Part shown: one piece after another, positions 21,073 through 62,272 of the stretch
How positions within the stretch are numbered: position 1 is the stretch's first letter
Layout of the letters: each line of letters opens with the position of its first letter
Origin: Azolla caroliniana
Lineage: Eukaryota; Plantae; Polypodiophyta
Length of the DNA stretch: 64,000 bases
Direction: 5' to 3'
Assembly: GCA_043228905.1 (NCBI GenBank)
Contig: JBHGNT010000017.1
Span: forward strand, 13,640,001-13,704,000
Notes under the pieces: model-generated
Seen by the model: only the letters and a program-made list of their open reading frames with translations
Database searches by the model: none
Told to the model about the DNA's origin: nothing
Translations under genes and position numbers: made by a program

Positions 21073-22540
21073 TTATCATCGTCATCTTCATGATATGCAA
21101 TTTTGTCTTCATTTTTAAAAGTTTCTTGTTCTTGTTCTTCTTACTTTGATCTTTTTAATATCAACCTCCGTTTAATCTTACAACTTCTTCTTCTTGCTTT
21201 GCTCTTTGTATTCTCGGCCTCCTCCGTTTAATGTCACTACTTCTTCTCTTGCTTTGCTCTGTGTATTCCCAACATCCTCCGTTTAATGTCACTACTTCTG
21301 AATCTCTTGCATTTGCTTTGTGTATTCTCAACCTTCTCCGTTTCATCATAATCTTATTCTTCTTCTTTCTGTGACTTCATCATCGTCATCTTCATGATCT
21401 GCAATTTTGTCTTCATTTTTAAATGTTTCTTGTTCTTCTTGCTTTGCTCTATGTATTCTCAGCCTCCTCCGTTTCATCATAATCTTATTCTTTGTCTTTC
21501 TTTGACTTTATCATCGTCATTTTCATGATCTGCAATTTTGTCTTCATTTTTAAAAGTTTCTTCTTCTTCTTCTTGCTTTGCTCTATGTATTCTCAGACTC
21601 CTCCATTTAATCTCACTACTTCTTCTCTTGCTTTGCTCTGTGCATTCTCAACCATCTTTGTTTAATATGACTACTTCTTCTCTTGGTTTGTTCTATTTAT
21701 TCTCAACCTAGTCCATTTCAGCATAATCTTATTCTTCTTCTTTCTGTGATTTCATCATCGTGATCATCATGATCTCCAAATTTGTCTTCATTTTTAAATA
21801 TTTCTTCTTCTTCTTCTTGCTTTGCTCTATGTATTCTCAGCCTCCTCTGTTTAATCTCACTACTTCTTCTCTTGCTTTGCCCTGCATATTCTCAGATTCC
21901 TCCGTTTAATCTAACTACTTCTCTTGCTTTGCTCTATGTATTCTCAGGCTCCTTCATTTCATCATAATCTTATTCTTCTTCTTTTTGTGAAGTCTTCATC
22001 ATCGTTATCTTTGTGATCTCCAATTTTGTCTTCATTTTTAAACATTTCTTCTTCTTGCTTTGCTCTGTGTATTCTTAGATTCCTCCGTTTCATCATAATC
22101 TTATTTTTCTTCTTTTTGTGACTTCATCATCGTCATCTTCATGATCTGTAATTTTGTGTTCATTTTTAAACGTTTCTTGTTCTTGTTCTTGTTCTTGTTC
22201 TTCTTGCTTTGCTGTGTGTATTCTCAGCCCCCTACGTTTCATCATAGTCTTATTATTCTTCTTTCCTTGACTTCATCATCGTCATCTTCATGATATGCAA
22301 TTTTGTCTTTATTTTTAAACGTTTCTTCTTCTTGATTTGCTCTATGTATTCTCAGATTCCTCTGTTTTATCATAATCTTATTCTTCTTCTTTTTGTGACT
22401 TCATCATCGTCATCTTCATGATCAACAATTTTGTTTTCATTTTTAAACGTTTCTTCTTCTTTTGCTTCTTCTCTTGCTTTGCTCTGTGTATTCTCAGTCT
22501 CCTCCGTTTAATCTCACTACTTCTTCTCTTGCTTTGCTCT
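21073..22540. repeat. Composite pyrimidine-rich satellite (~50 bp and ~120 bp related units)
   Basis: Repeated ttcttgctttgctctRtgtattctcag..cctccgttt followed by either aatctcactac or catcataatcttattcttc...catcatcgtcatcttcatgat..gcaattttgtcttcatttttaaa. Confidence 0.93.
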
Positions 22541-22868
22541 TGTCATAGACTCGAAGCTGTGACCTATAGCACACCCAATACTTAATATGAGATATAAATC
22601 ATTTGGAAACCCTTAAGTTATATGTAAATTGTATATGGTTAATATTGTATAGTCTAGCATATAGAATATTGTAGTGTTTAGTATATTCTAGAAATGTTCT
22701 ATGCTATATTCTAGAGATATTTCTCGGGTATATTCTTGAGATATTCAATCTTAGAACTTGTATAAATATGTGTGTTCACCTAGATTACAATCAGGGTGAA
22801 CAACACAAGTTATGGATTCTTTCAATTAATCAACTCATCCCTTTGATTATCTTTAGACTACCCTATTA

Positions 22869-25092
22869 TGTTGGGAGATAGGTCCCTCCGGATGGGAAGA
22901 GAGAAGAACAGAGAACTGGATGAGGAGTACCCGGCTATGGAGAGCCGGATGATGCAGACCCGGTGAGAACCGGATGAGGAGTACCCGGCTACGGAGAGCC
23001 GGATGACGCAGACCCGGTGAGAACCGGATGAGGAGTACCCAGCTATGGAGAGCCGGATGGTGCAGACCCGGTGAGATTCGGATGAGGAGTACTCGGCTAT
23101 GGAGAGCCGGATGGTGCAGACCCGGTGAGAACCGGATGAAGAGACATATTCGTAAATATGTTTCTGAGAGTCCATGGAGGCTATATTTGTAAATAGCCGA
23201 AAAGTCATATTAGTATAAATATGACTTAGGGCAAACTTGTTGTTTGGTTGTTGTCATTCTTGTTGGTGCAAGAATAGATAGAGCGCGTAACTGTGTACAC
23301 AGAGAGAGAGAGAGAGAAAGAGGTCGTTGCATCTGTTGTAATTGCCGCCTGTGGCGAGGATCGTGAGCACGAGGTCGTTGCCTCCGTGAACTCACTGCTG
23401 TACATACTAACCTAGTGATAGTTTGCAGCATGTGGGTTGCCGTGGTTTTTTCCCTAGTTTGGGGTTTTCCACGTTAAACATCCTGCGTACTCTTCTCTTC
23501 CATTGTGTCGTTCTTTATTTCCCGTTTTTCTGTGTATGATTCTAAGCTCGGTTGTGGCCGAACGTTGTGCATAAGGAGCGTTGAGTTCCCGACAAGTGGT
23601 ATCAGAGCGAAACGACACAGAAAATGGACGAATCGCTGGGCAGCATGTTCAAGCTCACCGACTCCAACTATTCAGTGTGGAAGTCGAAGATGAGGGATAT
23701 GCTCGTGGTAAAAGATCTTTGGTTACCGGTTCAGTTTGGGGACAAGAGACCGGACAAAATCGACGCCGTAATATGGGAGGTGATGCACATGAAGACAACG
23801 ACGTACATACGGTGCTTCATCGACATGAGCCTGTACAACAACTTCACTGAAGAGAGCAAGGCTCATGAGCTCTGGGAGAAGATCGGCATAATGTTTCAGA
23901 ACAAAAATGCTATTAATTAGGTTTCGGTATTCCAGAAGCTAGTAAGACTCCGGTACCAAGATGGCTCCAGCATGGCGGGGCACATGAATGCCGTCCAAGG
24001 GCTGATACACCAGGCAACTTCATTGGAAGTACCTCTCGCCGATGAGATACTAGCGCTACTCCTGCTCGGTTCCCTCCCGGATAGCTGGGAGACGTTGGTT
24101 GTCACTTTGGGCAACGCCTGGCCGGAAGGAAAACGGTTATCCCTAGCAAGAGTGGAGTTGAGCCTGCTAGATGAGGAGGCGCGTCGGAAAGACAAAGATA
24201 CAAGCTCCGACTCCAAAGCGCTCCTTACCGAATCGGAACGCGGAAGACAGAGAAACCGCAGTCCCCAGAACCGGGAGAAGTCGGGGACACGGTCAAAGTC
24301 AAGGGGGAGGCCTACTTGCTTCTATTGCGGCAAGCCGGGACACCTCCAAAAGAACTGTCGGCATTTCCGTAAAGACAAGGAAACCGACGGTACCGATTCG
24401 AAGCGGACCCCGGACCGGAACGACAAAGACCGGAGGGGAACGGACCGGAAGGGAACGACGACAATCGTGGCAAGTGAAGAAGAGTTGATGCTCATCACCG
24501 AGGAGAGTGAGATAAACCTTGCCGGCTACGAGATGACCTGGGTGGTAGACTCCGGAGCGTCGTTCCACCTTACCCCGGACCGAAAATGCTTCTCATCCTA
24601 CTCAGCCGGTGATCACGATTGTGTCCGGATGGGGAATGAAGGTACATGCCGAATTGTCAACACCAACTGGATGCAAGTTGCTACTGAGGGATGTCCGACA
24701 CGTTCCGGAGGTTCGACTGAACCTGATATCAGCCGGTCGGCTAGATGATGAAGGCTACACTGGTAGCATCCGGAACGGTGTCATGAAGTTCAGCAAAGGG
24801 AGCCTGATTGTGGCTCGGGCCCGGAAGGTCAACACACTGTACCTGATGAATGCTCGGTTATGTCCGGAAGAAGTGAACGTGGCATCCGACATTGCCGATG
24901 AGCTGTGGCATAAGAGGCTATGTCATATGAGCGAGAAGGGGATGAAGAGGCTTGCAGACGACAACCTCATTCCAGTGAAGAACGTGCACTTGGAGAAGTG
25001 CACTGATTGTCTGGCCGGTAAGCAAAACCGGACCTCCTTCCGACCAAGGCCACCGATGAGACGTAATGCACCACTAGAGTTGGTGCATACGG
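22869..25092 (+). mobile_element. Copia family C 5' part: LTR 22869-23594, PBS 23597-23608, disrupted gag-protease-integrase N-terminus
   Basis: TGTTGGGAG...CCCGACA, TGGTATCAGAGC, CFYCGKPGHLQKNC, WVVDSGAS, LWHKRLCH; premature stop at 23920; cut at ELVHT by a Gypsy LTR. Confidence 0.93.
22911..23140. repeat. 54-bp tandem repeat (~4 copies) in U3 of Copia C LTR
   Basis: gagaaccggatgaggagtacccggctatggagagccggatgRtgcagacccggt repeated. Confidence 0.95.
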
Positions 25093-27925
25093 TGTCGTGC
25101 CTTTCGGCTTCGGATCGTTGCGTGAGTCGGGTGGGAACCACAGAGGTCTTGGACTAGGAGAAAGAAGTTCGTGAGATAGAGATTAATTATGAGTAAATAG
25201 CAAAGAGAAAGACAAGAAACTCGTGAATCACACGAGTATACTATATTAATTGGTACTTAGGGTGTTAAGAGAGAAGTAGATGTATAAATCGTGAATCCCA
25301 CGAATAATTTTTATATTGATTAATACTTAATCCAAATAATCAACAACAACTACAATGTGCTCCCCATCCTTATATAGTGATGGGAGAGACTAAGCATAGC
25401 TACATGCTTTTTCTCATATGTTCATGCACACTAAATGTGCATGTGATGCTTTTTATTTTATTTTATTTCCTAAGTATAGGGCTCATGCACGCTAGATGTG
25501 CATGAGTTATTTTTAGTGTCTCGTGTTTTTTCTTTTTCATATATTAAAGAAATACACGATTTACCTTTTAATAAAGGTATGCATAAATAAAGGTCTTATA
25601 CATATTAAATCTATATTTAAAACACTTAAGATAATTTAATGTAATGGTAAGGTTGGGGTTTGTCAACGTGGAGGTGCAGAGTTTGAATCACGCCTTGCGC
25701 AGTAGTGAGTATTTCCTTTCTTTTTACATTTATGTCTCTTTATCCGGCTCTTCCTTGCCGGTATGCCGTTTTCTTCCTTGCCGGTATGCCGTTTTCCTCC
25801 TTGCCGGTATGCCGTTTTCTTCCGGTTCTCACCGAGCACTCCATTCTCTATCCGGAGGGACAAAAATATAATTTCCACATAGTGTGCAACCTACACTACG
25901 ACACTCGCCCCCTCCAAACCCGCACATCCTCCGGTATGTGCCGAAGTTCTTGATTCTTCGTATCCGTCTTCATCCGAAGCTTCCTCCGATTCTCCCCTTA
26001 TGTCGACTATGAGTTGTAATCCACTTTCTTCGCTTCCCGCATCATTGTGGTCTTCGTCCGATTGCTCCTCGTTGTCGGCCTCGACTTGGATCACATAAGG
26101 TTTGTCGTCGGTCCGCTTCTTGAAAATCTTCACCCGTTTCCCGGCTATAGGCACTCGTAGTATTGTTCCATCCAACTCGGACAGTCGGTACGTCCCGTTG
26201 TCGAAGACCTTCCGAACCTCGTACGGCCCGAACCACCTTTTCGCGAATTTCCGCATCGTTGTATGTTGATGGTCCAAGCTACTATCATAGACGATCACCC
26301 AATCTCCTTCTTCAATCCTCCTCGGTCGTAGTCGGTGCTTTGTGTCGAACCGGCTTTTGTTCCGGAACCGTGCTTCTTGTTGTCGGCGTGACGCTTCCGC
26401 TACATCTTTCGGTCTTCCCTCCAGTTGTCGTATCCGGACCGCTAGTAGTTCTTCCCGGCTCATCTCTTCCTTCCACGGTAGTATTGTCCATGTCGCGATT
26501 GCGGTTTCCGTTGGCATTACCGGTGCTTGTCCGGTCATGAGTTCTGCCGGCATGTAACCGGTCACGGAGCTATGCGTCGTCCGATCCGCCCATAGTGCAT
26601 ACGGAAGCATTTGTGGCCAATCCTTCACCCTTCCGTCGCATGCCTTCGCAAGTGCTTTCACGATCGGACTATGTCCTCGTTCGATCTTTCCGTTGGCCTC
26701 CGGATTGTAGGCCGTTGTCAACGTTAACCGAACTCCATGTTTGGCGAAGAATCCCCTAGCTTTGTCCGAGTCGAGTTCTCCCCGGTCCGCAATCACTTGT
26801 CCTACGCAGCCGTACCTACAAAACACTTCTTCCAAAAGAAATTGGCACACCGCGGCACACGTTTTCCTCCGAAGCGCTCGACCTTCAACTTGGTTTGTGA
26901 GATCTTCTCGAGCTAACACCAAGTATTTCTTTTGTCCAATCCCGGTCGGCATAGCTACAATGTCGACCATCCACTTGAAGTTGATTGTCGGTGAGAATGT
27001 CGGATGCAGCTCATCTCGGTGTCGGACCCCGGAGTAGACTTGACATTTCTCGCAGCTTTCTGTGAACTCCGCGACATCTTTATACATGTTCTTCCACCAA
27101 TATCTTTGCTTGATTTTCACAAAAGTTGCCCATGTTCCTCGATGTCCAGCCCAATCGGATTCGTGGAACTCGGACATTATCCGGTTTCGTTGCTCTTTCG
27201 TCCCGACTACTCGAAGTGGTATCCCATCCGGTCTTTTCGGCGTCCTCCATATTAAACCGTTTTCCAAGAAGAACTTTTGGACTTGCCTCTTCTTCCTTCG
27301 GATCTCGGCTCTCCTTTCTTTATCATTGGTTGAATCCTCGACCTCTTGTAGCATCTTCCCGATCATCAAGGTTTCCCCCTCGTATTCTTCTTCCCGGAAT
27401 TCTCGGATCACGTTCACTCGGCATATGTGTTCTGACGTGAAGTAATCTTCGGAAACTTCTTCATTATCTGATTCGGTTATGTCGTCTTCAAACCGCGCCC
27501 TCGATAACATGTCCGCTACCGCGTTGTCCTTCCCCGAGATGTGTCGAACCTCCGGATTAAGTGACTTGACATATGCAATCCACCTTAGCATAGCCACATC
27601 CGGTATCGTACAACACCGCATCATCCCGAGTATCGGAAGACAATCCGTCTCGATCACCACTTCAGCTCCGATCAAATAATCCCGATCCGATTTTATCGCC
27701 GACACGACTCCCCACAACTCTCTTTTGACTTGTGCATATCCGCGTTGCCTTTCGTTGAGGACCTTTGCTCCAAATCGGATCGGATACCGCGAACCATCCG
27801 AGTCGGCTTGATTGATGACCCACCCGATACCGGTTGGACTTGTATCAACCGTTACTATGATTGGCCGCTCGTAGCTTGGCTTCTTAAGTGATTCCGCCCT
27901 CCATAGTGTCTTCTTGAGCTTCCTC
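25093..27925 (-). mobile_element. Gypsy family A 3' fragment: RNase H-integrase, PPT and 3' LTR (25093-25903)
   Basis: ORF 25891-27717 with HESDWAGH..C..C, WMVD, IADRG, NGKIE, WFGPY; PPT GGAGGGGGCGAG; appears identical to 33232-36064 (offset 8139). Confidence 0.93.
25630..25701 (+). other. 72-nt tRNA-shaped Pol III-like module in Gypsy A/B LTR (also 33769-33840 +, 36973-37044 -, 43110-43181 +, 46361-46432 -)
   Basis: A box TAATGTAATGG, 7-nt loop TTGTCAA, variable region AGGTG, B box GTTYGAATC, T-run about 20 nt downstream; stems decayed. Confidence 0.6.
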
Positions 27926-27934
27926 CATAGTGTC

Positions 27935-30322
27935 TTCTAAAGTCTCAAGAAGCCAACCCATTGTGGTCGAAGAAACAATTAAATGAATTTCGAAGACGAG
28001 CATTCAAGTTTTTTTTACATGAAGGGCATTTATGGAGGCGTCCAAAAAGGCCAACCGAAAATCCTCTTCGATTCATTTGTAAGGATGACATTAAGAGAAA
28101 ATTAATTAATGAATTCCATGATAGTTTGTGGGTAGGGCATAGAGGCATATGGGCGACATTTATGAAGTTGAAAGAAAAGTATTGGTGGTCACATATGTAT
28201 AAATATGTAACGAAACTTGTGGAAACCTGTGAGGTTTGTTAGAGGTATTCAACCATCATCAATGCCTTATAAATGGATGGTCGATCTAGTGACAATGCCA
28301 CTTGGGGAAGGTCAAATGCGATACTTAGTACTAGCAAGAGAAGACCTTACAAACCAAGTAGAAGGAAGACCACTACGACAAAAAACAACTAGAGCTGTAT
28401 GTAAATTTTTGTTAGAAGACGTAATATGTCGTTACGGGTGTGTTGGTAAAATAATTGCAGATAGAGGAGAACTTGACTCTGATGAAGCTAGAGAATTCTT
28501 CAGCCGAATAGGGGTCAAATTATCACTTACAACTGCGTATAATCCAAAAGCCAATGGAAAGATTGAAAGAGGAAATAGCCCAATAGTTAAGGCGATCGTG
28601 AAAAGCTGTAAAGATAAAATAAGAGATTGGCCACGCATGCTACCTTATGCAATATGGGCGGATCGAACAACGCATAGTTCGGTAACAGGATACATGGCAG
28701 TTGAATTAATACTTGGCCAAAAGTGCATCATGCCGATATAAGAATCAATTATGTCATGGATATCTATTCCATGGAGAGAGGAGGTGAGTAGAGAAGAATT
28801 GCTTGCTTTGCGAATTCAACAATTAGAGCGTCGACCTGAAGATATAGAATTAGCAGCCCAACGATTGAAGGAGGCTCGACTAAAGAATAAAATTCATTTT
28901 GATCAAACTCACAGAATTCAGCCAAAGAAAATAGAAGAAGGGGATTGGGTACTCGTGTATGATAGCAATTTAGATAATAAACATAGCATCGTCCGCAAGT
29001 TTGCTGAAAGATGGTTTGGGCCTTACATAGTGGAAAAAGTATATGATAACTTTACCTATAACCTTAGTGAATTGGATGGGACACTAATCCTAAATGTGGT
29101 AGCAGGAAAGAGTATAAAAGTATTTAAGAAAAGGCTCGAGCTTGAACCTCCACTAATAGATCAACATGAAGAAGAAAGATAGTGGCACATGTCGAAGGAC
29201 GTGCAAGTCTAGAGGGGGTGGATGTCGTGAAGTATGAAAGCTTCACATCAAAAGTCTACAATAAGATAAATACATAACTAAAATAAAAAGAATCTTGTTA
29301 GTGTTTTATATAATATTATACATTATATAGGTGAATAAAGTAAAACCCTACATTATGAGGACAAGAGAGGACTTGAACTAATAACCTTCACCTTATGAGC
29401 CTCACATGTTACCAATTAGCAAACATTCATGATATATAAACTATATAAATATTATAGTACATTATATACGGCGGCTATAGAAAGAAAAAGAATTGTATTA
29501 CATGCGCTAGAGAGGACTCAAACCCACAACCTCAATATTATAGTACATTATATACGAAGACTATAGAAAGAAAAAGAATTGTATTACATGCACTATAGAG
29601 GACTCAAACCCACAACCTCAACTTTGAAAGCCTCAATCACTACCACTTAGTCAATACTCACAACATGGCAAAAGCCTACGTGTTGTATTATTTGAACTTG
29701 CATTAAATAGTGTCAACATTGAAATGTATTACATGTGCACCATATATCACACATGCAAGAGCCTATTTGCATGTGCGCCAGATGTACCACATGCAAGATT
29801 ATCCCTTTGCTATAAAAGGAGAAGGGGATGTAGTCATAAAGATACCAAGAAATAAGATTGAATCAAATTATATTGGATCAAGAGAGAATTATAATAGATC
29901 ATAATAGACAAAGGGGGAGAGAGAGGTATCTTCAAAAGACTAGAGGAGAACTAGCTTGGCGGTTGTGGTCCTCAACTCGCAACGGAAGGGCGGTGAGTCT
30001 TATCCTCGTCAAAAGATCCTTGAAGGGAAGATTATGGTTTACTATCAATGAAGGGAAGAGCGGCTACTTTGTGAGACGAAAATCGAAGGTCCAACGACGC
30101 TCGCAGCCATTTTGTAACTCTTTCATGATAATGATTATAAATTTCCTACATTTTCTCAAATATCATTTTATATCTTATCTTGCCATATCTCATATTTCTT
30201 AAAAATCCTACCTTGCCATATCCTATTGATGTCTATTCACTTCATATATACTCTTTCGTCTCTTCCGTCCATAATCCCAGTGATTCCTTCCTCACTTTCA
30301 CGTTATCTTTGTCTGTGCAACA
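27935..30322 (+). mobile_element. Old Gypsy family E 3' end (decayed integrase, PPT, 3' LTR 29223-30322), left-arm copy
   Basis: LVLAREDLTNQVEGR, IIADRGE, WFGPY; PPT AGAGGGGGTGGA followed by TGTCGTG...GCAACA. Confidence 0.88.
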
Positions 30323-30493
30323 TCCTTTGGTGTCTTGGCATCCCGAATGTAGCTCAAGAACTGATCGCTCACACAGGATGCAAGGTAGTATAGAACTCTG
30401 CTTGCCGCTTGTTCCCAAGTCAGGAAATCTCTGTGTGTAGATTCGGGTGCTGTGTCGTTAGCTCCATCGACATAACTCCGGTAGCCGTGCCCG
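30323..30493 (-). mobile_element. Short Copia (family F-like) gag fragment hosting the E and D insertions (mirror 49722-49892 +)
   Basis: GHGYRSYVDGANDTAPESTHRDFLTWEQAASRVLYYLASCVSDQFLSYIRDAKTPK, homologous to the gag at 11081. Confidence 0.75.
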
Positions 30494-33231
30494 TGTCGAA
30501 TACAAGTGTATAATGGACGTATTCACACTATCCCTTTGTATAGCCCATCTTTGGGGCATTTGTGTAATTAGCATAAAGGGTAGTTGCCCTAAGTCGGTCA
30601 CTATATATAGTGACCTTGTAACCCTTTTGTAAGGTTGGGTGTTGTATTATTGTTTCTATTGAATAGAAAGTCTTTTGTGCCTCTCTCTCTCTCTCTCTCT
30701 GTGCAACGAACGAGAGACTGTCATACGCAGGTACAGAACAGAATCGAATGCTTCTTGATCTTCCGCATAGACGACATTGTCTCCAACATCTGGTATCAGA
30801 GCCTGCACAGTATTCGGTCCTTCAATCCACTGTCGGCCGTCGTCTCAGCCTGCACAGCATTCGGTTTCCTGCGTCATTCGAAGAAGAGAGAAGAAGAAGA
30901 AAAACGAGGCTTGCATCTCATCGCGTTAGATCATCTTCACTTGGAGTAAACCAGCCGGTTGTACTCTGTTCCTTGTGATCGTAACCGCTCGAGGTGAAAT
31001 CCCCTTGTGCAACATTGACACGATCGTGCTCCACTCGGTTAAACGGCATCCGAAGAGGTCATCAAACTCTGCTCGCCGCTCATTGTAACCACTCGGTGCA
31101 GATCAGTCTCAAGACAACAACCCCAATTCGTGCTTCATTCGGCTGATCGACATTCGGGAGGATCAGTTGGATCCGTCTCTCTCGTCGCTGCAGTCACCCG
31201 AAGCAGAATCGGTCCAGACAATCGGTTTCAATAATCGGCATCTGGCATATATAATCGGAAGCGAACCGGGCTCACTCCGACTCGGCAACATTCGGGAAGA
31301 CCAGTCGGTTCTGTCCCTCAAGTTACCGGAGTCAATTCGAGCAAGTTCAACAATACATATATCCGAAGCCGAACCGACTCGGGTTCAAATCCGACTAGAA
31401 CGATATCGGGTGAGCCAACCGGCTGCACTCCAACAAGGTTCGTAGTCAACTCCGAACCGAGCTTCGTCAACCGAAACCAAATTTGATGGCATCAACATCC
31501 GGCTCGTCAGAAATGAGTCTACGAAAGTTCGATGGATCGAACTTCAACTTCTGGAAGGAGCAAATGCAGGACTATCTCATAGTCAAGGGGCAAATCGATC
31601 CCATCGAAAATGAAGAACCTCCAGAAGGATACAAACCAATTGAGTGGCAGAAGCTGGACAGAATCGTCCGCGCCACGATTCGGATGCACCTATCGGAATC
31701 GGTATACTTTACGGTGCAATCGTGTACGACAGCATTCGAACTGTGGAAAACACTGTCGGACACCTACGAAAAGAAGGTCGCTGCAACGAAGATGTTTCTG
31801 ATCCGGCGCCTCTACAACTTGCGGATGAAAGAATCCGATTCGGTTCAAGCACATCTCAATGAGTACGAAAGCATAAGCTCCCAAATCTCATCTCAGGGGA
31901 CGGCAATCGAGGATGAACTCAGAGCAATGATACTCATGAGTAGCCTTCCCTCATCATGGGAAACTTTCGTCACAACCGTGTGCAACGCGTCAACCACGGC
32001 TGTCAAATACTCCGAAGTCACGAGCGCAATCCTGACCGAAGCAGCTCGGAGAAAGTCTTTCGCCAAAGACTCAACAGACGACGCTTATGTAGTACAAGGT
32101 TCGACAGACCGATCGAACATACGAGGAAGAGATTCCTCACGACCGCCGAACAATCAGCGAAGACGGAGCCAGTCACGGGATAACCGAATCTGCAACTACT
32201 GCAAGAAACCCGGACACATCAAAGCCGACTGCCGCGCACTCAAGAACAAGTCTCAGAAATCAGACAAGAAGAGTGGCCGGCATGAGGAGATCAATTACGT
32301 CAGCTTCTCAGCTGATGTGCTACCAAACGACCCGAATATACTATCAATCGAAAATCCAGTCGGATCAGAAGTTCTGCTCACGACTGAAGAATCGAGCACA
32401 TGGCTCTTAGATTCGGGCGCGTCATTTCACGTGACTCCTCATCGATCCCAATTTCGGCAATATACGATCCGTCACTCCGACTCAGTTCGAGTCGGCAACT
32501 CGCAACACTGTGACATCATTGGAATCGGCACAGTAGAGCTCAACCTTGCAGGTGGCTCTACACTTGTACTTCACAATGTCCGACATGTACCCGAGCTCTC
32601 AAGGCCATTGATCTCAGTCGGACAACTAGATGAAGACGGCATTCGTGCCGGTTTTTCTTCGGGAGGGTGGACACTCCACAGGGGGAACCTCCTGCTTGCT
32701 AGAGGACCCAAGATACACTCACTGTATCCGTTACATGTTACGCTCAGAGAGGGTAACCTGTTTTTGGTGGATATTCCTGTGTCATCACTATGGCACAGAA
32801 GATTAGGACACCTCAGCAAGGCCGGCATCACGCACCTATCTAGAGCCGGGTACATCCCCAAACTCTCCTTCTCGGACCATCAATTCTGCGAGCATTGCCA
32901 GTATGGCAAACAAGCAGCCGCATCACACCCGACATCAGCACCAAGAGAAACGAGACCTCTCGACTTAGTCCACTCGGACGTCTGTGGCCCAATGCCGCAT
33001 CAGTCTCTTGGCGGTGCCTCTTACTTCGTCAGTTTTATTGACGATTCGACTCGAAAGGTGTGGGCTTATCCAATTCGCACCAAAGATCGTGTCTTCTCGA
33101 TCTTCTCCGATTGGCTCGCTATGGTAGAAAATCAAACCGGCCGAAAACTGAAATGCTTTCGGACCGACAATGGGGGAGAGTTCAAATCCGAAGAATTCGT
33201 CAAATTCTGCCGACAACGCGGCATCCGACGT
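30494..33231 (+). mobile_element. Young Copia family D 5' part: LTR 30494-30788, PBS 30791-30802, open gag-protease-integrase from 31486
   Basis: CNYCKKPGHIKADC, WLLDSGAS, LWHRRLGH, VHSDVCGP, RTDNGGEF; cut by Gypsy A LTR at 33232. Confidence 0.95.
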
Positions 33232-36200
33232 TGTCGTGCCTTTCGGCTTCGGATCGTTGCGTGAGTCGGGTGGGAACCACAGAGGTCTTGGACTAGGAGA
33301 AAGAAGTTCGTGAGATAGAGATTAATTATGAGTAAATAGCAAAGAGAAAGACAAGAAACTCGTGAATCACACGAGTATACTATATTAATTGGTACTTAGG
33401 GTGTTAAGAGAGAAGTAGATGTATAAATCGTGAATCCCACGAATAATTTTTATATTGATTAATACTTAATCCAAATAATCAACAACAACTACAATGTGCT
33501 CCCCATCCTTATATAGTGATGGGAGAGACTAAGCATAGCTACATGCTTTTTCTCATATGTTCATGCACACTAAATGTGCATGTGATGCTTTTTATTTTAT
33601 TTTATTTCCTAAGTATAGGGCTCATGCACGCTAGATGTGCATGAGTTATTTTTAGTGTCTCGTGTTTTTTCTTTTTCATATATTAAAGAAATACACGATT
33701 TACCTTTTAATAAAGGTATGCATAAATAAAGGTCTTATACATATTAAATCTATATTTAAAACACTTAAGATAATTTAATGTAATGGTAAGGTTGGGGTTT
33801 GTCAACGTGGAGGTGCAGAGTTTGAATCACGCCTTGCGCAGTAGTGAGTATTTCCTTTCTTTTTACATTTATGTCTCTTTATCCGGCTCTTCCTTGCCGG
33901 TATGCCGTTTTCTTCCTTGCCGGTATGCCGTTTTCCTCCTTGCCGGTATGCCGTTTTCTTCCGGTTCTCACCGAGCACTCCATTCTCTATCCGGAGGGAC
34001 AAAAATATAATTTCCACATAGTGTGCAACCTACACTACGACACTCGCCCCCTCCAAACCCGCACATCCTCCGGTATGTGCCGAAGTTCTTGATTCTTCGT
34101 ATCCGTCTTCATCCGAAGCTTCCTCCGATTCTCCCCTTATGTCGACTATGAGTTGTAATCCACTTTCTTCGCTTCCCGCATCATTGTGGTCTTCGTCCGA
34201 TTGCTCCTCGTTGTCGGCCTCGACTTGGATCACATAAGGTTTGTCGTCGGTCCGCTTCTTGAAAATCTTCACCCGTTTCCCGGCTATAGGCACTCGTAGT
34301 ATTGTTCCATCCAACTCGGACAGTCGGTACGTCCCGTTGTCGAAGACCTTCCGAACCTCGTACGGCCCGAACCACCTTTTCGCGAATTTCCGCATCGTTG
34401 TATGTTGATGGTCCAAGCTACTATCATAGACGATCACCCAATCTCCTTCTTCAATCCTCCTCGGTCGTAGTCGGTGCTTTGTGTCGAACCGGCTTTTGTT
34501 CCGGAACCGTGCTTCTTGTTGTCGGCGTGACGCTTCCGCTACATCTTTCGGTCTTCCCTCCAGTTGTCGTATCCGGACCGCTAGTAGTTCTTCCCGGCTC
34601 ATCTCTTCCTTCCACGGTAGTATTGTCCATGTCGCGATTGCGGTTTCCGTTGGCATTACCGGTGCTTGTCCGGTCATGAGTTCTGCCGGCATGTAACCGG
34701 TCACGGAGCTATGCGTCGTCCGATCCGCCCATAGTGCATACGGAAGCATTTGTGGCCAATCCTTCACCCTTCCGTCGCATGCCTTCGCAAGTGCTTTCAC
34801 GATCGGACTATGTCCTCGTTCGATCTTTCCGTTGGCCTCCGGATTGTAGGCCGTTGTCAACGTTAACCGAACTCCATGTTTGGCGAAGAATCCCCTAGCT
34901 TTGTCCGAGTCGAGTTCTCCCCGGTCCGCAATCACTTGTCCTACGCAGCCGTACCTACAAAACACTTCTTCCAAAAGAAATTGGCACACCGCGGCACACG
35001 TTTTCCTCCGAAGCGCTCGACCTTCAACTTGGTTTGTGAGATCTTCTCGAGCTAACACCAAGTATTTCTTTTGTCCAATCCCGGTCGGCATAGCTACAAT
35101 GTCGACCATCCACTTGAAGTTGATTGTCGGTGAGAATGTCGGATGCAGCTCATCTCGGTGTCGGACCCCGGAGTAGACTTGACATTTCTCGCAGCTTTCT
35201 GTGAACTCCGCGACATCTTTATACATGTTCTTCCACCAATATCTTTGCTTGATTTTCACAAAAGTTGCCCATGTTCCTCGATGTCCAGCCCAATCGGATT
35301 CGTGGAACTCGGACATTATCCGGTTTCGTTGCTCTTTCGTCCCGACTACTCGAAGTGGTATCCCATCCGGTCTTTTCGGCGTCCTCCATATTAAACCGTT
35401 TTCCAAGAAGAACTTTTGGACTTGCCTCTTCTTCCTTCGGATCTCGGCTCTCCTTTCTTTATCATTGGTTGAATCCTCGACCTCTTGTAGCATCTTCCCG
35501 ATCATCAAGGTTTCCCCCTCGTATTCTTCTTCCCGGAATTCTCGGATCACGTTCACTCGGCATATGTGTTCTGACGTGAAGTAATCTTCGGAAACTTCTT
35601 CATTATCTGATTCGGTTATGTCGTCTTCAAACCGCGCCCTCGATAACATGTCCGCTACCGCGTTGTCCTTCCCCGAGATGTGTCGAACCTCCGGATTAAG
35701 TGACTTGACATATGCAATCCACCTTAGCATAGCCACATCCGGTATCGTACAACACCGCATCATCCCGAGTATCGGAAGACAATCCGTCTCGATCACCACT
35801 TCAGCTCCGATCAAATAATCCCGATCCGATTTTATCGCCGACACGACTCCCCACAACTCTCTTTTGACTTGTGCATATCCGCGTTGCCTTTCGTTGAGGA
35901 CCTTTGCTCCAAATCGGATCGGATACCGCGAACCATCCGAGTCGGCTTGATTGATGACCCACCCGATACCGGTTGGACTTGTATCAACCGTTACTATGAT
36001 TGGCCGCTCGTAGCTTGGCTTCTTAAGTGATTCCGCCCTCCATAGTGTCTTCTTGAGCTTCCTCATGGCTTTAGTGTGTTCCGGTTTCCACTCGAATTTC
36101 TTACCTTTCCGCAACAAGTGATAGAGCGGGTCCGCTATATGTGCATAGTGCGGAATCCATATGTGATAGAATGCACACGCACCCAGAAACCTTCGGACTT

Positions 36201-40626: not shown

Positions 40627-43408
40627 GCACCACTATCGAGCACCTTCGTCTCCATCCGTGAAGCCGTGATAAAGGATTGGCCGAGGATGACAGAATGTGA
40701 AACCTCATCCTGCACAAAGAAATTTTGGTCAATTTCTACATCCCCGATCTTTACCGTCACATCCGGACAAGCCGCAAATAGGTCTTCTGTCGTTTTCGTG
40801 GCTGCCCGAATCTTCCATCCATGGTTGGTGTTTATAGGCCACTTCCCCTTTCGGTAGAACTCCTTGGACATCAAGTTGATCTCCGATCCGTGATCAATCA
40901 ATGCTAGCACGGGTTCTTTGATGTTGCCGATTCGGACCGGAGTCTCCGTAGTCGCACGTGCCCAGTGTGGCCTTGTATAGTGGGAGTTCGGAATTTCGCC
41001 TTCCACTTCGGTGTCGTTCATTGAAACGGTATTTGCATTCACCCTTGGAGCATTTTCCTCCGTACTTTGTCTCTTCCTTTTCACAAGATCCACGAGAAGA
41101 TCGTAAAACTCCTTCTTCGCTATTCCGAGTAGTTCCCGCAGCGAAAAATCGACCCGGCTATCCAAGATTCTTTCCTCGAACACTCTTTTCAAGTCGGTTT
41201 GTTGTTCTATGTCCGAGGCGAGCTTGAATGCCGGAGTCGCCTTTTCTTTTCCCTTACCTCCGGAGTTCCAGCTTTCCGGTATCTTCGATGGTCCGGCCGC
41301 ATCCTCCGTGCGCCGTCGTTTCTCGTCCACATACACCTCATGTAATTGACACAGGGCGTATATGCTATTCTTGTCGACGGGGCACTCCCATCCCGTAGCT
41401 TCCCGGACGCCTTCCGCGGTGTTTCGGATATCGTTGGAGTCGGTTTTCTCGGTGTTTCCTAGCACCTCCGGCCAGAAAGACGCCTTCGCTCCCGTTGACT
41501 CCCCGACACATATTCCCGCGGTTGTCGCATAGTTGCTTCTTGCCGCTAACTCCTCCTCGAGCACCTTCTTCATGCCGCCTTTCCGGAAGTTCGGTCGGAG
41601 TGGCTTCCGAGAGTCCATCGAATGAATCCGGTTTCCCTCGTAGTAGATGAGATCCCGTCGTAGCGCCTCCTTATGGTCGTCGCAATCCCTCTGATCGTGT
41701 TCGGCGCTATCGCACCATATGCACCGTCGATCCGTATATTTGGAGCTTGTGGGACGGTCATCCGACTTCTTCACCATCGCGATCTTTATATTCTCCATCT
41801 CCTTCAGCAGCTGCTCCACCGTAGACGCGTCGACTCCCTTCTCGGCCGTAATCTCCCGAGCCCTTGGTTGATGGTCTTCCAGTCCCGTTCTCGGTTTCGG
41901 AATCGGTTCCGAAACCCTCTTTTCTTCGTTGGCAAGCCATTGCCCCCTCTTCGTGTACCGCGCGACGATATCCCGCACGCTTTCCCATGTTTCGGTGAGG
42001 CCGCTTTCGGTGGTCGTGTCCTCAAGAAGCACTCCGAGATCTTTCCGGTCCCGGACGTCCACAGCTCGCAAAAACATGATGACTTTGTCCGGTGCAAGAA
42101 TAGTTTGATCTCTCGCGGACAACCTCCCGAACCGACTTTCGAATGTCGAAAACACTTCGAGGACCTTCAGCCCCTTACCTGACGTTTCCACCCAATCCTC
42201 GAATCCCCTCCGCGTTGCCTTGGAGGAGTCCTCGATGGCAAACGTGGTCTTTAACGCCTCTTCGAATGCTTCCCACATCGGATTTTGTTGTTGCAACCCG
42301 TGGATACTCCCTTGAAGCCCGTCGGTCGCCACCCGGTTAAAGGATGTCACTTGCAGTCCTTCCGAAGCCCGGCACCGGAGCATCTCCGCCTTGTAGTCCT
42401 GCAAATATCGCGACACATCCTTACCATTAAATTGCCCGTTGCGTTGCACAAGCCGCTCTACTGATGCCGAAATCTCCGACATCGTGCGTTGTTCTTGAAG
42501 CATCCGTTCGAACATCGCCATCATATTGTTAGCTTGTTGAGCCTCCATCTCCTTGCCACCCGTCTTCACGTCGGGTTCACCAACTGTGTCGTGCCTTTCG
42601 GCTCCGGATCGTTGCGTGAGTCGGGTGGGGACCACAGAGGTCTTGGACTAGGAGAAAGAAGTCCGTGAGATAGAGATTAATTATGAGTAAATAGCAAAGA
42701 GAAAGATAAGAAACTCGTGAATCACACGAGTATACTATATTAATTGGTACTTAGGGTGTTAAGAGAGAAGTAGACGTATAAATCGTGAATCCCACGAATA
42801 ATTTTTGTATTGATTAATACTTAATCCAAATAATCAACAACCCTTTACATATTTCTCTCCTCCTTATATAAGGAAGGAAGAGCTAAGCATGGCTTCCTGT
42901 TTTTTTTTTATAAAAAGTGTTCATGTCCACTAAATGTGCATGTGATGCTTTTTTATTCCCTAAGTATAGGGCTCATGCACGCTAGATGTGCATGAGTTAT
43001 TTTTTAGTGTCTCGTCTTTTTCATATAAAAAATACACGATTTACCTTTTAATAAAGGTATGCATAAATAAAGGTCTTATACGTATTAAATCTATATTTAA
43101 AACACTTAAGATAAGTTAATGTAATGGTAAGGTTGGGGTTTGTCAACGTGGAGGTGTAGAGTTCGAATCACGCCCTGCGCAGTAGTGACTATTTCCTTTT
43201 TCTTTTACATTTATGTCTCTTTATCCGGCTCTTCCTTGCCGGTATGCCGTTTTCTTCCTTGCCGGTATGCCGTTTTTCCTCCTTGCCGGTATGCCGTTTT
43301 CCTCCTTGCCGGTATGCCGTTTTCTTCCGGTTCTCACCGAGCACTCCATTCTCTATCCGGAGGGACAAAAATATAATTTCCACATAGTGTGCAACCTCCA
43401 CTACGACA
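40627..43408 (-). mobile_element. Gypsy B mirror copy: LTR 42587-43408, PBS, open gag-protease truncated at the fold-back junction
   Basis: ORF 40572-42635; its last residues derive from antisense RT. Confidence 0.94.
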
Positions 43409-46400
43409 CCGGAACTCGGGAGTCGATCCGATAGTGGACGAATTCGCGGAAGCTTTTGCCGGACGTGCGATATACTCCATCGGGGACCTATACTCGGGGT
43501 ATGACCAATTCCAACTAGCCGTGGAGAGCCGAGACATCACTACCATGCGGACACCGATAGGACTAGTTCGAATGTGCACACTACCACAAGGAGCGACAAA
43601 CTCGGTTGCACATATGATGAACGCGATGAACAAGGTGCTTCGAGATTGCATTCCGGAGATAACGATGCCGTTTCTAGATGACATTCCGATGAAAGGATGC
43701 GCGGTGGAAGAAAAAGATGAGACTATGGATGATCGGGGATGCCGAAAGTTCGTGGTCGACCATATTCATGATTGCGAGAAAGTGTTGCGAAAGCTAGAAG
43801 ATGTGCACCTAACACTTTCCGGGGAGAAATCGGCATTCGGGCAAGAAGAAATATTGGTGGTCGGACATCTATGTGGACCCTACGGCCGAAGACCGTCACC
43901 AACAAAGATCGATGCGATTCAAGCTATGAAGGAAGTATGTGAGTCAACATCGGAAGTCCGAAGGTTTCTGGGTGCGTGTGCATTCTATCACATATGGATT
44001 CCGCACTATGCACATATAGCGGACCCGCTCTATCACTTGTTGCGGAAAGGTAAGAAATTCGAGTGGAAACCGGAACACACTAAAGCCATGAGGAAGCTCA
44101 AGAAGACACTATGGAGGGCGGAATCACTTAAGAAGCCAAGCTACGAGCGGCCAATCATAGTAACGGTTGATACAAGTCCAACCGGTATCGGGTGGGTCAT
44201 CAATCAAGCCGACTCGGATGGTTCGCGGTATCCGATCCGATTTGGAGCAAAGGTCCTCAACGAAAGGCAACGCGGATATGCACAAGTCAAAAGAGAATTG
44301 TGGGGAGTCGTGTCGGCGATAAAATCGGATCGGGATTATTTGATCGGAGCTGAAGTGGTGATCGAGACGGATTGTCTTCCGATACTCGGGATGATGCGGT
44401 GTTGTACGATACCGGATGTGGCTATGCTAAGGTGGATTGCATATGTCAAGTCACTTAATCCGGAGGTTCGACACATCTCGGGGAAGGACAACGCGGTAGC
44501 GGACATGTTATCGAGGGCGCGGTTTGAAGACGACATAACCGAATCAGATAATGAAGAAGTTTCCGAAGACTACTTCACGTCAGAACACATATGCCGAGTG
44601 AACGTGATCCGAGAATTCCGGGAAGAAGAATACGAGGGGGAAACCTTGATGATCGGGAAGATGCTACAAGAGGTCGAGGATTCAACCAATGATAAAGAAA
44701 GGAGAGCCGAGATCCGAAGGAAGAAGAGGCAAGTCCAAAAGTTCTTCTTGGAAAACGGTTTAATATGGAGGACGCCGAAAAGACCGGATGGGATACCACT
44801 TCGAGTAGTCGGGACGAAAGAGCAACGAAACCGGATAATGTCCGAGTTCCACGAATCCGATTGGGCTGGACATCGAGGAACATGGGCAACTTTTGTGAAA
44901 ATCAAGCAAAGATATTGGTGGAAGAACATGTATAAAGATGTCGCGGAGTTCACAGAAAGCTGCGAGAAATGTCAAGTCTACTCCGGGGTCCGACACCGAG
45001 ATGAGCTGCATCCGACATTCTCACCGACAATCAACTTCAAGTGGATGGTCGACATTGTAGCTATGCCGACCGGGATTGGACAAAAGAAATACTTGGTGTT
45101 AGCTCGAGAAGATCTCACAAACCAAGTTGAAGGTCGAGCGCTTCGGAGGAAAACGTGTGCCGCGGTGTGCCAATTTCTTTTGGAAGAAGTGTTTTGTAGG
45201 TACGGCTGCGTAGGACAAGTGATTGCGGACCGGGGAGAACTCGACTCGGACAAAGCTAGGGGATTCTTCGCCAAACATGGAGTTCGGTTAACGTTGACAA
45301 CGGCCTACAATCCGGAGGCCAACGGGAAGATCGAACGAGGACATAGTCCGATCGTGAAAGCACTTGCGAAGGCATGCGACGGAAGGGTGAAGGATTGGCC
45401 ACAAATGCTTCCGTATGCACTATGGGCGGATCGGACGACGCATAGCTCCGTGACCGGTTACATGCCGGCAGAACTCATGACCGGACAAGCACCGGTAATG
45501 CCAACGGAAACCGCAATCGCGACATGGACAATACTACCGTGGAAGGAAGAGATGAGCCGGGAAGAACTACTAGCGGTCCGGATACGACACCTGGAGGGAA
45601 GACCGAAAGATGTAGCGGAAGCGTCACGCCGACAACAAGAAGCACGGTTCCGGAACAAAAGCCGGTTCGACACAAAGCACCGACTACGACCGAGGAGGAT
45701 TGAAGAAGGAGATTGGGTGATCGTCTATGATAGTAGCTTGGACCATCAACATACAACGATGCGGAAATTCGCGAAAAGGTGGTTCGGGCCGTACGAGGTT
45801 TGGAAGGTCTTCGACAACGGGACGTACCGACTGTCCGAGTTGGATGGAACAATACTACGAGTGCCTATAGCCGGGAAACGGGTGAAGATTTTCAAGAAGC
45901 GGACCGACGACAAACCTTATGTGATCCAAGTCGAGGCCGACAACGAGGAGCAATCGGACGAAGACCACAATGATGCGGGAAGCGAAGAAAGTGGATTACA
46001 ACTCATAGTCGACATAAGGGGAGAATCGGAGGAAGCTTCGGATGAAGACGGATACGAAGAATCAAGAACTTCGGCACATACCGGAGGATGTGCGGGTTTG
46101 GAGGGGGCGAGTGTCGTAGTGTAGGTTGCACACTATGTGGAAATTATATTTTTGTCCCTCCGGATAGAGAATGGGGTGCTCGGTGAGAACCGGAAGAAAA
46201 CGGCATACCGGCAAGGAGGAAAACGGCATACCGGCAAGGAGGAAAAACGGCATACCGGCAAGGAGGAAAACGGCATACCGGCAAGGAAGAAAACGGCATA
46301 CCGGCAAGGAAGAGCCGGATAAAGAGACATAAATGTAAAAAGAAAGGAAATACTCACTACTGCACAAGGCGTGATTCGAACTCTGCACCTCCACGTTGAC

Positions 46401-46969
46401 AAACCCCAACCTTACCATTACATTAAATTATCTTAAGTGTTTTAAATATAGATTTAATATGTATAAGACCTTTATTTATGCATACCTTTATTAAAAGGTA
46501 AATCGTGTATTTCTTTAATATATGAAAAAGAAAAAACACGAGACACTAAAAATAACTCATGCACATCTAGCGTGCATGAGCCCTATACTTAGGAAATAAA
46601 ATAAAATAAAAAGCATCACATGCACATTTAGTGTGCATGAACATATGAGAAAAAGCATGTAGCTATGCTTAGTCTCTCCCATCACTATATAAGGATGGGG
46701 AGCACATTGTAGTTGTGGTTGATTATTTGGATTAAGTATTAATCAATATAAAAATTATTCGTGGGATTCACGATTTATACATCTACTTCTCTCTTAACAC
46801 CCTAAGTACCAATTAATATAGTATACTCGTGTGATTCACGAGTTTCTTGTCTTTCTCTTTGCTATTTACTCATAATTAATCTCTATCTCACGAACTTCTT
46901 TCTCCTAGTCCAAGACCTCTGTGGTTCCCACCCGACTCACGCAACGATCCGAAGCCGAAAGGCACGACA
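43409..46969 (+). mobile_element. Gypsy A mirror copy: RT-RNase H-integrase to 46124, 3' LTR 46112-46969
   Basis: Open pol; LTR has 5 copies of the 23-nt repeat versus 3 in the left arm. Confidence 0.96.
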
Positions 46970-49500: not shown

Positions 49501-49534
<34 letters not shown>

Positions 49535-60928: not shown

Positions 60929-61000
60929 TGTGAATATCAAGGTTTGCACTTGTGACCTTCAAACAATGGTCTTACACTTTAACCATTGCACCAACTCATT
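60929..61000 (-). other. 72-nt tRNA-shaped module in a probable Gypsy LTR fragment
   Basis: Consensus A box TGGTGCAATGG, AGGTC, T arm ACAAG-TGCAAAC-CTTGA, immediately followed by TTTT. Confidence 0.55.
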
Positions 61001-61334: not shown

Positions 61335-62272
61335 TAGATAGCGTGACCCATCATTTCCGTTGAATTGCCTGTTTCTTTGCACAAGCCGCTCTATTGCCGA
61401 CTTGATCTCTGACATCGCGTGTTGTTCTTGCAGTATCCAGTTGAACATCAGCATCATCATGTTCATCGCCACTTGTTGATTCTCCATCTCCTTGCCACCC
61501 ACTTTCACGCCGAGTATACCAAATGTGTCGTGCCTTTTGGCGCCGGATCGTTGCATGAGTCGGGTGGGAACCGTTGGGGTTTTGGACTAGGAGGAGGAAG
61601 AATTTGAGACGATTCTAGTTATTAATAGATTATAAGAAAGAGAGATAGAAAACTTGTGAGTCCCACAAGTATAATGTATTTTATTAATGAATATTTAGGT
61701 AAGAATATGAATTTAGATTGAAAGAGAAGGATATAGAAACCTCGTGAATCACATCAGTATAGTTTATTAATCGGTATTTAGAATCATATTCAATTTCCAA
61801 AGATTCCACCCCCCCTATTTCATCTTTCTCCCATCCTTATATAGTGATGGGAGAGGCTTAGCAATTCATGCTTTTTCGATGGACTCCAGGCTTTTGCTAT
61901 CTATAGACTATATACTTTCTCTAACATGATTCTTCTAAAAGTGATCATGCTTTTTCTAACCTCATGCGTTTGTTTTATAAACTATAGTGTTCATGCACAC
62001 TAGATGTGCATGTGTAGCTTTTTTCTATCATGTGTTTTTCTTCTAACTAAAGCTTTTCCTAGAAAATATGCATGAAGTAACCTTTCTATGTGGGATATTT
62101 TTTAACGTTCATAATGTGTTAGATAATGGCAAGGTTCCAAATTATTAACATTGAGGTACAAGGTTTGAATCTTGCCCTATGCATGTAAAATATTTTTCTT
62201 CTATTTCCGTATATTTTATTGAGTCGGGTACTCCATACGTTTTTCACGTAGTGTACGAAATACACTACGACA
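61335..62272 (-). mobile_element. Older A/B-related Gypsy 5' end: LTR 61526-62272, decayed tRNA-Trp PBS, gag start
   Basis: Same LTR termini; TGGTATACTCGGCGTGAA; ILQEQHAMSEIKSAIERLVQRNRQFNG; tRNA-like module at 62112-62183. Confidence 0.88.

What the first reader, a model, noticed from the sequence alone, without database searches (positions are those of the whole stretch)
25630..25730. Autonomous-type Gypsy LTRs carry an antisense 72-nt tRNA-shaped Pol III module
Seen: GATAATT-TA-ATGT-AATGGTA-AGGT-T-GGGGT-TTGTCAA-CGTGG-AGGTG-CAGAG-TTYGAAT-CACGC-CTTGCGC-A followed by a T-run. It aligns without gaps to a 72-nt tRNA, keeping the A box, B box and spacing while the stems have decayed. It resembles recalled plant tRNA-Trp (AATGGTA, AGGT, GTTCGA.TCACG), which is the element's own primer, and lies in the primer's orientation. 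It is present in all five A/B LTRs and in the much older LTR (62112-62183). Established: Cassandra TRIMs carry 5S-derived Pol III promoters in their LTRs, and TFIIIC-bound A/B boxes can act as chromatin barriers. Inference: captured tDNA kept as a TFIIIC insulator or anti-silencing site, or as an antisense Pol III unit in U3 of a protein-coding element. This is the best candidate for an undescribed system here.
Basis: partly seen in the sequence, partly recalled or inferred. Interest (0 to 1): 0.82.

Follow-up and report, generated by a model that had tools for sequence, protein, structure and literature searches.

The report
tRNA-gene promoter kept in retrotransposon ends
Many distantly related families of a plant jumping gene carry, next to their own promoter, the remains of a tRNA gene that has lost its RNA shape but keeps the promoter letters and their spacing, which likely lets it recruit the RNA polymerase III machinery and would help keep the jumping gene's promoter open in silenced DNA.

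Summary
The module is real and more general than reported. The element is a Phygy-lineage Gypsy (NCGN target site, Trp-type primer site) of a seed-free plant. The module is not a tRNA: ARAGORN and Rfam find nothing, and stems pair at chance (42-49% vs 93-99% in real tRNAs). It is not specifically Trp-derived. What is kept is the DNA promoter: A box, B box, the modal 32-bp gap and positions 44-47, which yeast TFIIIC contacts. It occurs in 9 of 19 scorable integrase clusters (65-76% amino-acid identity), with everything between the boxes at chance identity. It lies mostly antisense, 150-275 bp upstream of the Pol II TATA, sometimes doubled or on both sides, and moves between families by U3 exchange. 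Best reading: a minimal Pol III unit selected for TFIIIC/TFIIIB assembly, likely shielding the LTR promoter (function untested, about 0.5). Against: 10 of 19 clusters lack it, the flagged copy has a damaged B box, and there is no expression data. The five A/B LTRs are about three independent copies. Closest known: Helenus TRIMs and foamy-virus LTR Pol III units. This scan noted tRNA-like LTR units before in fungal and animal genomes, not this sequence.

The parts
25630..25701 (+). tRNA-gene-derived Pol III promoter module (positions 1-73), antisense in U3 of LTR A1
25637..25647 (+). A box (11-bp type; departs from consensus at position 10)
25672..25675 (+). Positions 44-47, third conserved patch; contacted by TFIIIC in yeast (PMC11724288)
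25680..25689 (+). B box (this copy has the minority T at position 56)
25721..25725 (+). T5 run, predicted Pol III terminator (predicted RNA about 100 nt)
25370..25377 (-). Pol II TATA box of the LTR, 260 bp from the A box, facing the other way
25093..25903 (-). 3' LTR A1 of a Phygy-type Gypsy element, inserted at an NCGN site inside a Copia integrase ORF
25904..25915 (-). Polypurine tract
25891..27936 (-). pol fragment (RNase H-integrase) of the same element, 681 codons open
33769..33840 (+). Module in LTR A2 (33232-34042), identical to that of A1
46361..46432 (-). Module in LTR A3 (46112-46969), mirror arm of A2; has C56
36973..37044 (-). Module in 5' LTR B1 (36746-37567), mirror of B2
43110..43181 (+). 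Module in 5' LTR B2 (42587-43408); canonical B-box core
42565..42582 (-). Primer-binding site after LTR B2; the same motif follows LTRs across the related loci; Phygy uses tRNA-Trp (PMC6317226 supplement)
62112..62183 (+). Degenerate module in LTR C (61526-62272), a diverged subfamily
29589..29660 (-). Module 1 in U3 of a second Phygy family LTR (D, starts 29223, + strand), 157 bp upstream of its TATA; mirror copy near 50555-50626
29358..29429 (-). Module 2 in the same D LTR; a duplicated B-box half lies at 29507-29549 and a degenerate sense module at 29947-29993
60929..61000 (-). Box pair in an orphan U3 fragment resembling L034/L035 LTRs by eye (no BLAST hit at E<=1e-6)

Best explanation
The module is a tRNA-gene remnant in the LTR that keeps the A box, B box, their spacing and positions 44-47 but no RNA fold, and it likely assembles TFIIIC and TFIIIB beside the LTR's Pol II promoter, where it would act in cis as an open-chromatin anchor and barrier against silencing. 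SHOWN: anatomy, spacing, loss of stems, conservation across families, place relative to the TATA box, both orientations, exchange of module-bearing U3 between families, insertion of these elements at CG-centred sites inside other retroelements. INFERRED (strong, about 0.85): origin from a tRNA gene or tRNA-derived repeat, and selection at the DNA level for TFIIIC binding. INFERRED (moderate): TFIIIB loading and a short, unstructured Pol III transcript of about 90-105 nt ending at a T run. INFERRED (weak, from yeast): the benefit is to keep the Pol II promoter 150-275 bp away accessible, and to shield it from flanking chromatin or read-in transcription. The cassette is optional.
For: Box pairs at 43/44: 11 of 13 in LTRs, 0 in coding DNA, shuffles mean 0.04. 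9 of 19 scorable clusters carry it; integrases 65-76% identical to L001; 12 of 17 module-bearing loci checked hold both a gag-size (>=700) and a pol-size (>=1000 codon) open frame (L001 712 + 1241). In 9 related U3s: boxes 0.78/0.84 vs flanks 0.49/0.35, block null p=0.0008. Across 10 module clusters at 0.28 identity in free positions, positions 44-47, not used in the scan, score 0.74 vs at most 0.40 for any other non-box 4-mer. Of 23 B-box cores in LTRs, 10 of 10 with an A box have at least 3 of 4 matches at 44-47, vs 1 of 11 without and 2 of 24 in coding DNA (p=3e-5, rows not fully independent). Yeast TFIIIC contacts base 47, 44-47 modulate binding, 32 bp is the commonest A-B gap, and the A box is needed for TFIIIB loading (PMC11724288 passages). 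Stems at chance against 93-99% in 120 viral pattern hits, 119 called tRNA. T4 within 36 nt in at least one member of 6 of 7 U3 clusters vs 28-35% background. AT content 0.79-0.85 just upstream vs 0.59 LTR mean. Modules flank the TATA, pointing outward, in L019, L021, L034. A yeast tDNA barrier needs TFIIIC and Pol III and works in either orientation (PMC2040200 abstract). All 4 window flanks are NCGN; 3 of 4 lie in retroelement coding DNA.
Against: 10 of 19 clusters lack it, as do sisters at 93-95% integrase identity (L025, L041), so it is dispensable. 0 of 4 scorable loci from other assemblies (L030, L037, L060, L067) have it. 5 of 32 modules have T56, including assembled family contigs L003 and L010 and the flagged copy. 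In the young A/B family the A-box G10 is a minority (28, 13, 1 and 6% of depth in 4 runs). Module-bearing LTRs are more CpG-poor than module-free ones (0.54 vs 0.88, 8 vs 11 clusters, p=0.026), not what protection from DNA methylation predicts. Positions 62-73 are as conserved as the boxes in the window's clade (0.86), which may reflect another factor's site. The barrier review cites TFIIIC barriers for yeast and animals only (PMC9540200 passages). A Pol III complex in the 3' LTR could obstruct the element's own Pol II transcript (by analogy to PMC4228148 abstract). No binding, chromatin or expression data exist here.
Confidence: 0.5

Rival explanations
1. Captured passenger: the modules are inserts of tRNA-derived SINEs or Helenus-like TRIMs. 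The boxes look conserved because selection acted in the donors, and they now decay inside the LTR.
For: Patchy on the integrase tree (10 changes for 17 antisense rows). At least 10 unrelated module sequences. A separate tRNA-like repeat occurs in this genome (3691-3863, similar to L036). Damaged boxes in young copies. Kojima proposes SINE insertion into LTRs as the origin of Helenus.
Against: Within one U3 lineage flanks have drifted to 35-49% identity while boxes stay near 80%, so selection acted in place. No shared body or A-tail follows position 73. Distance to the TATA is narrow: 152-166 bp in 7 modules, 190-197 in 2, 242-275 in 6, plus 3 second copies at 299-388. Common family variants at positions 10 and 52 go toward the consensus, and no variant >=5% is listed at 53-61.
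Confidence: 0.15
2. The product matters: Pol III makes a short RNA, antisense to U3 of the genomic RNA, that tunes silencing or copy number, as foamy-virus LTR units make miRNAs.
For: Full unit with AT-rich upstream and T run. Antisense is the commonest orientation (9 of 11 strict pairs). SFV LTR miRNAs depend on A and B boxes (PMC3993851 passages).
Against: No conserved sequence between boxes and no conserved fold: 3 of 24 predicted transcripts have z<-2, mean -0.35. Sense modules exist in U3 and R/U5.
Confidence: 0.15
3. Pol II traffic control rather than chromatin barrier: bound TFIIIC/TFIIIB blocks read-in transcription from the host element, fixes the start site, or damps the LTR promoter.
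For: Pol III complexes block read-through and repress neighbours in yeast (PMC4228148 abstract). These elements sit inside other retroelements' ORFs. Does not need CpG protection.
Against: The same roadblock in the 3' LTR would hinder the element's own transcript. No direct test here; overlaps with the best explanation.
Confidence: 0.13
4. Landing pad: the module attracts Pol III-targeting retroelements, or the element's own integrase.
For: Lead from earlier AI notes on fungal genomes; Ty3 precedent (search listing only).
Against: Visible insertion sites are CG-centred and in coding DNA or unrelated flanks. No insertion junction seen just upstream of the modules printed; no pile-up of contig ends in 5 runs.
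Confidence: 0.04

Closest known systems
Helenus TRIMs / TRIMp3 (Kojima 2024, PMC10886601; parts 1-4 of 6 of the main text read, supplements not seen)
   Same: [quoted passage not shown]
   Different: Helenus is non-coding and 311-1263 bp, and its Pol III promoter is proposed to transcribe the element. Here the carriers have gag and pol, about 6 kb inside, a Pol II TATA, and mostly antisense modules, some doubled or on both sides of the TATA. The paper notes that 'not a few' Repbase LTRs resemble tRNA but studied only TRIMs; its only plant case is Selaginella.
Cassandra TRIM (as described in PMC10886601; PMC7215508 seen as listing only)
   Same: Pol III internal promoter in the LTRs of a plant retroelement.
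   Different: 5S-derived type 1 promoter, sense, drives the element's RNA, non-autonomous. Here type 2 (tRNA) boxes; the L001 sense strand has 17 T4+ runs, so Pol III could not make the genomic RNA.
Foamy-virus LTR Pol III miRNA units (PMC3993851, passages)
   Same: A/B-box Pol III units with T terminators inside the LTR of an autonomous retroelement.
   Different: Those make hairpin pri-miRNAs; here no conserved hairpin, tRNA-gene geometry, plant Gypsy.
tDNA chromatin barriers and extra-transcriptional Pol III effects in yeasts (PMC2040200, PMC4228148, abstracts)
   Same: What it most likely works like: an assembled Pol III complex, orientation-independent, acting on neighbouring chromatin and Pol II transcription.
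   Different: Those are host tRNA genes or ETC sites with experimental proof; here it is mobile, cannot fold as tRNA, is in a plant and is untested.
Phygy lineage of Ty3/Gypsy (Neumann 2019, PMC6317226; passages and one supplement row)
   Same: 4-bp NCGN target, tRNA-Trp PBS, short internal region filled by gag-pol, no chromodomain found.
   Different: Described from Physcomitrella; no Pol III module is mentioned in the passages seen.

Membership tests
Phygy (Ty3/Gypsy) | RT-RNase H-integrase order, no chromodomain or extra domain | tested here: met
   Pfam on the 915-aa ORF: RVT_1, RT_RNaseH, Integrase_H2C2, rve only
Phygy (Ty3/Gypsy) | NCGN target site | tested here: met
   4 of 4 window flanks and 6 of 6 visible 5' flanks in loci are NCGN; paired duplications not checked
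Phygy (Ty3/Gypsy) | PBS for tRNA-Trp | tested here: inconclusive
   One conserved PBS motif across loci; its Trp identity is recalled and fits; no host tRNA-Trp gene could be fetched (0 hits)
Phygy (Ty3/Gypsy) | Groups with REXdb Phygy references in a tree | not testable with these tools
   No labelled references held; nearest named proteins are Riccia (61%) and Adiantum
tRNA gene (RF00005) | Cloverleaf stems and model score | tested here: not met
   stems 42-49% paired, not above null
Type 2 Pol III promoter | A box and B box at tRNA spacing | tested here: met
   the flagged copy is degenerate at positions 10, 52, 56
Type 2 Pol III promoter | AT-rich upstream region and T-run terminator | tested here: met
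   for U3 modules; not met for R/U5 sense modules (T4 at 89-111 nt or none); features per PMC13578239 section 20
Type 2 Pol III promoter | TFIIIC binding and Pol III transcription | not testable with these tools
   No raw RNA reads or ChIP data
Helenus / TRIMp3 | tRNA-derived sequence in LTR | tested here: met
Helenus / TRIMp3 | Short non-coding element (about 1.3 kb or less) | tested here: not met
   L001 has 712- and 1241-codon ORFs; other carriers likewise
tRNA-derived SINE insertion | Shared body and tail after the tRNA head; target duplication | tested here: not met
   Similarity ends at position 73, no body or A-tail; target duplications not searched systematically
Foamy-virus-type Pol III miRNA cassette | Stable hairpin transcript | tested here: not met
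   3 of 24 with z<-2, mean z -0.35
tDNA barrier | Blocks spread of silencing in a box-dependent way | not testable with these tools
   Needs a reporter assay

The most novel reading that the evidence does not exclude
Autonomous plant Gypsy elements carry a swappable self-insulating cassette: a tRNA gene pared down to the TFIIIC contact map, placed upstream of or on both sides of the LTR's Pol II promoter and traded between families by U3 recombination, as a Pol III-based defence against silencing. It would be a natural TFIIIC barrier in plants and a class of transposon anti-silencing that needs no transposon protein.
Probability: 0.4. Interest if true: 0.85.

Novelty: new variant of a known kind. 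Interest (0 to 1): 0.68.

Why it matters
How LTR elements stay transcribable after landing in silenced, transposon-rich DNA is an open question, and TFIIIC barriers are cited for yeast and animals but not plants in the review checked. This lineage gives a natural experiment: close sister families with and without the module, and an evolutionary footprint that matches the yeast TFIIIC contact positions, including 44-47. It also extends small-RNA-gene capture from non-coding TRIMs to protein-coding elements, where the captured promoter cannot serve to transcribe the element. Practically, such modules may be miscounted as tRNA genes by permissive settings (13 of 30 sequences called at ARAGORN -ps80, 0 at default; no shuffle control).

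Tried and rejected
No genome is held for this window, so no genome-wide count was possible. ARAGORN on the window and on 60 of 80 loci: 0 genes. Rfam: no tRNA hit. Cloverleaf pairing: not above strand-swap null in any of 4 stems, 22 dereplicated of 32 modules. Trp origin or use as primer: rejected. Donor isotype: best identity to 120 viral tRNA-pattern hits only 26-47% in free positions, no consistent isotype. No host tRNA-Trp gene found in viral or prokaryotic collections. No integrase relatives in viral contigs; one in genome contigs (L081), no module. No RNA holder listed; X19 proved probably DNA; contigs cannot show strand or start. Pol III transcription of the whole element: rejected, 17 T4+ runs. 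Copia LTRs of the window (4.6 kb): 0 modules. Host species not established. The tree is the quick method only; the careful search did not finish. Three seeds (L036, L046, L071) were left out of the profile and module tallies as outside or uncertainly inside an LTR. disagree on the share of T56 (7-25% non-C vs under 5%), probably from reference bias.

Full report
OBSERVATION. The 72-nt stretch is at 25630-25701 (+). It lies in an LTR (25093-25903) whose polypurine tract and integrase ORF show that the element runs on the - strand. The module is therefore antisense, in U3, its A box 260 bp upstream of the Pol II TATA. It is in A1, A2, A3, B1, B2 and C. However, 27935-39503 and 40627-52280 are a 99% mirror around a 100-N gap, probably an assembly artefact, so there are about three independent A/B copies. 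ARAGORN and Rfam see no tRNA. The flagged copy is imperfect at tRNA positions 10, 52 and 56; C56 is the family majority in four runs (75-93% of depth).

THE ELEMENT. Pfam gives RT, RNase H and integrase, no chromodomain. All four window flanks are NCGN and one PBS motif recurs across relatives. Neumann 2019 gives NCGN and tRNA-Trp (81%) for Phygy. Named homologues are from Riccia and Adiantum, so the host is likely a seed-free plant; the species is not established. L001, 100% identical in the integrase query, holds open frames of 712 and 1241 codons, so the family has full coding capacity. Three of four window insertions lie in other retroelements' coding DNA.

IS IT CHANCE? From 80 related loci (the best 80 of 159), 47 had at least 350 nt of 3' LTR; 30 represent 90% integrase clusters. 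With textbook boxes (recalled), at most 2 mismatches and free spacing 30-60, 11 of 13 pairs fell at 43/44 (9 antisense, 2 sense). Coding DNA gave 1 pair (spacing 59); 100 shuffles gave a mean of 0.04 at 43/44. The same signature in viral contigs returned real tRNA genes in 119 of 120 hits, so the geometry is that of a tRNA gene.

WHAT IS CONSERVED. In 9 related U3s (7 chosen by integrase cluster or LTR homology, 2 by module BLAST) box positions average 0.78 and 0.84, flanks 0.49 and 0.35 (block null p=0.0008); positions 62-73 also score 0.86 in this clade. Across all 32 modules, 10 clusters share only 0.28 identity in free positions. They keep the boxes (partly by construction) and positions 44-47 (0.74; not used in the scan; best other 4-mer 0.40), plus A38. 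Starting from B-box cores alone, 10 of 10 with an A box have the 44-47 patch vs 1 of 11 without. Stems pair at 42-49%, equal to null, vs 93-99% in real tRNAs. Predicted transcripts have no shared fold. The yeast TFIIIC-tRNA gene structure reports a base contact at 47, effects of 44-47 on binding and transcription, 32 bp as the commonest A-B gap, and an A-box requirement for TFIIIB loading (PMC11724288 passages). The conserved letters thus match a protein-DNA contact map, not an RNA fold. U3 modules also have an AT-rich upstream zone and usually a nearby T run; R/U5 modules lack the near T run.

DISTRIBUTION. 9 of 19 scorable integrase clusters (80% nucleotide; 6 of 25 not scorable) carry it; 2 are mixed. 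It is scattered over the tree (quick method). All carriers come from one series of assemblies; 0 of 4 scorable loci from elsewhere have it. U3 moves between families: L027 starts like its module-free sister L041, then matches the module-bearing U3 of L035; L034 shares U3 with L035 (67% integrase identity) while its 93% sister L025 has none; L004, L028 and L042 share U3 at about 70% integrase identity. Antisense modules lie 152-275 bp upstream of the TATA (15 cases), second copies at 299-388; sense modules occur in U3 (3 cases) and 74-167 bp downstream of the TATA (5 cases). A second family in the window (LTR D, from 29223) has two antisense modules.

ORIGIN. A tRNA gene or tRNA-derived repeat, captured more than once or long ago. 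The Trp resemblance is confined to the young A/B copies (6 of 11 at 62-72; 1-5 elsewhere), and no isotype can be assigned.

MECHANISM. Most likely TFIIIC binds, loads TFIIIB between the module and the Pol II promoter, and Pol III makes a short unstructured RNA. The benefit is inferred to be in cis: an open, barrier-like site protecting the LTR promoter in silenced surroundings, as for yeast tDNA barriers that need TFIIIC and Pol III and work in either orientation (PMC2040200 abstract). Both orientations and the unconstrained body favour this over an RNA product. Against: the module is optional; 5 of 32 have T56; G10 is a minority in the youngest family; carriers are more CpG-poor, not less; TFIIIC barriers were cited only for yeast and animals in the plant review checked; and there are no expression or binding data. 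Confidence is about 0.85 for selection on TFIIIC binding and 0.5 for the barrier role.

COMPARISON. It resembles Helenus in LTR content but fails its defining feature, being a coding element of about 7-8 kb. It resembles foamy-virus LTR Pol III units in placement but has no hairpin. It is not a tRNA, not Cassandra, and shows no SINE body. Searches listed no paper describing such modules in coding plant Gypsy LTRs; the library lacks most subscription papers and Repbase, and Kojima remarks that tRNA-like LTRs are not rare there. Earlier AI notes of this scan report tRNA-like LTR units in fungal and animal genomes and nothing similar in sequence.

VERDICT. Real, conserved across a lineage, apparently undescribed in this setting, function untested. 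New variant of a known kind; interest 0.68.

Noticed in passing
window 27935-39503 and 40627-52280: 11.6-kb mirror duplication (99%) around a 100-N gap; probably an assembly artefact that doubles element counts.
   Followed up: partly
window 3691-3863; L036 3075-3219: Convergent pair of A/B-box-like units between microsatellites, 78% like a stretch of L036; a separate tRNA-related repeat without the 44-47 patch.
   Followed up: partly
L027 7015-7270; L034; L004/L028/L042: U3 segments are exchanged between Phygy families whose integrases are only 67-73% identical.
   Followed up: yes
window 25480-25515 and related LTRs: A palindromic motif rich in CATG is conserved between module and TATA in several families; it resembles an RY/B3-type site (recalled).
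   Followed up: no
L023 about 3040-3093, L036, L046, L057: Module-free, GC-rich LTRs share a B-box-like core close to the U5 end; no A box at tRNA spacing in the strict scan.
   Followed up: no
window 12542-12769 (-): Short kinase-like ORF fragment amid Copia remnants; looks MOK-like (recalled), a kinase linked to flagella.
   Followed up: no
literature, PMC13578239: The review states that the fern Azolla filiculoides has over 7500 annotated tRNA genes. If a fern with such LTRs is the host (not established), LTR modules might inflate counts; default ARAGORN does not call them.
   Followed up: partly
L081: A Phygy-like integrase (61%) in a contig labelled as a cyanobacterial genome; likely plant contamination.
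   Followed up: no
window 21040-23180: Arrays of about 110-245 bp and 54 bp tandem repeats.
   Followed up: no
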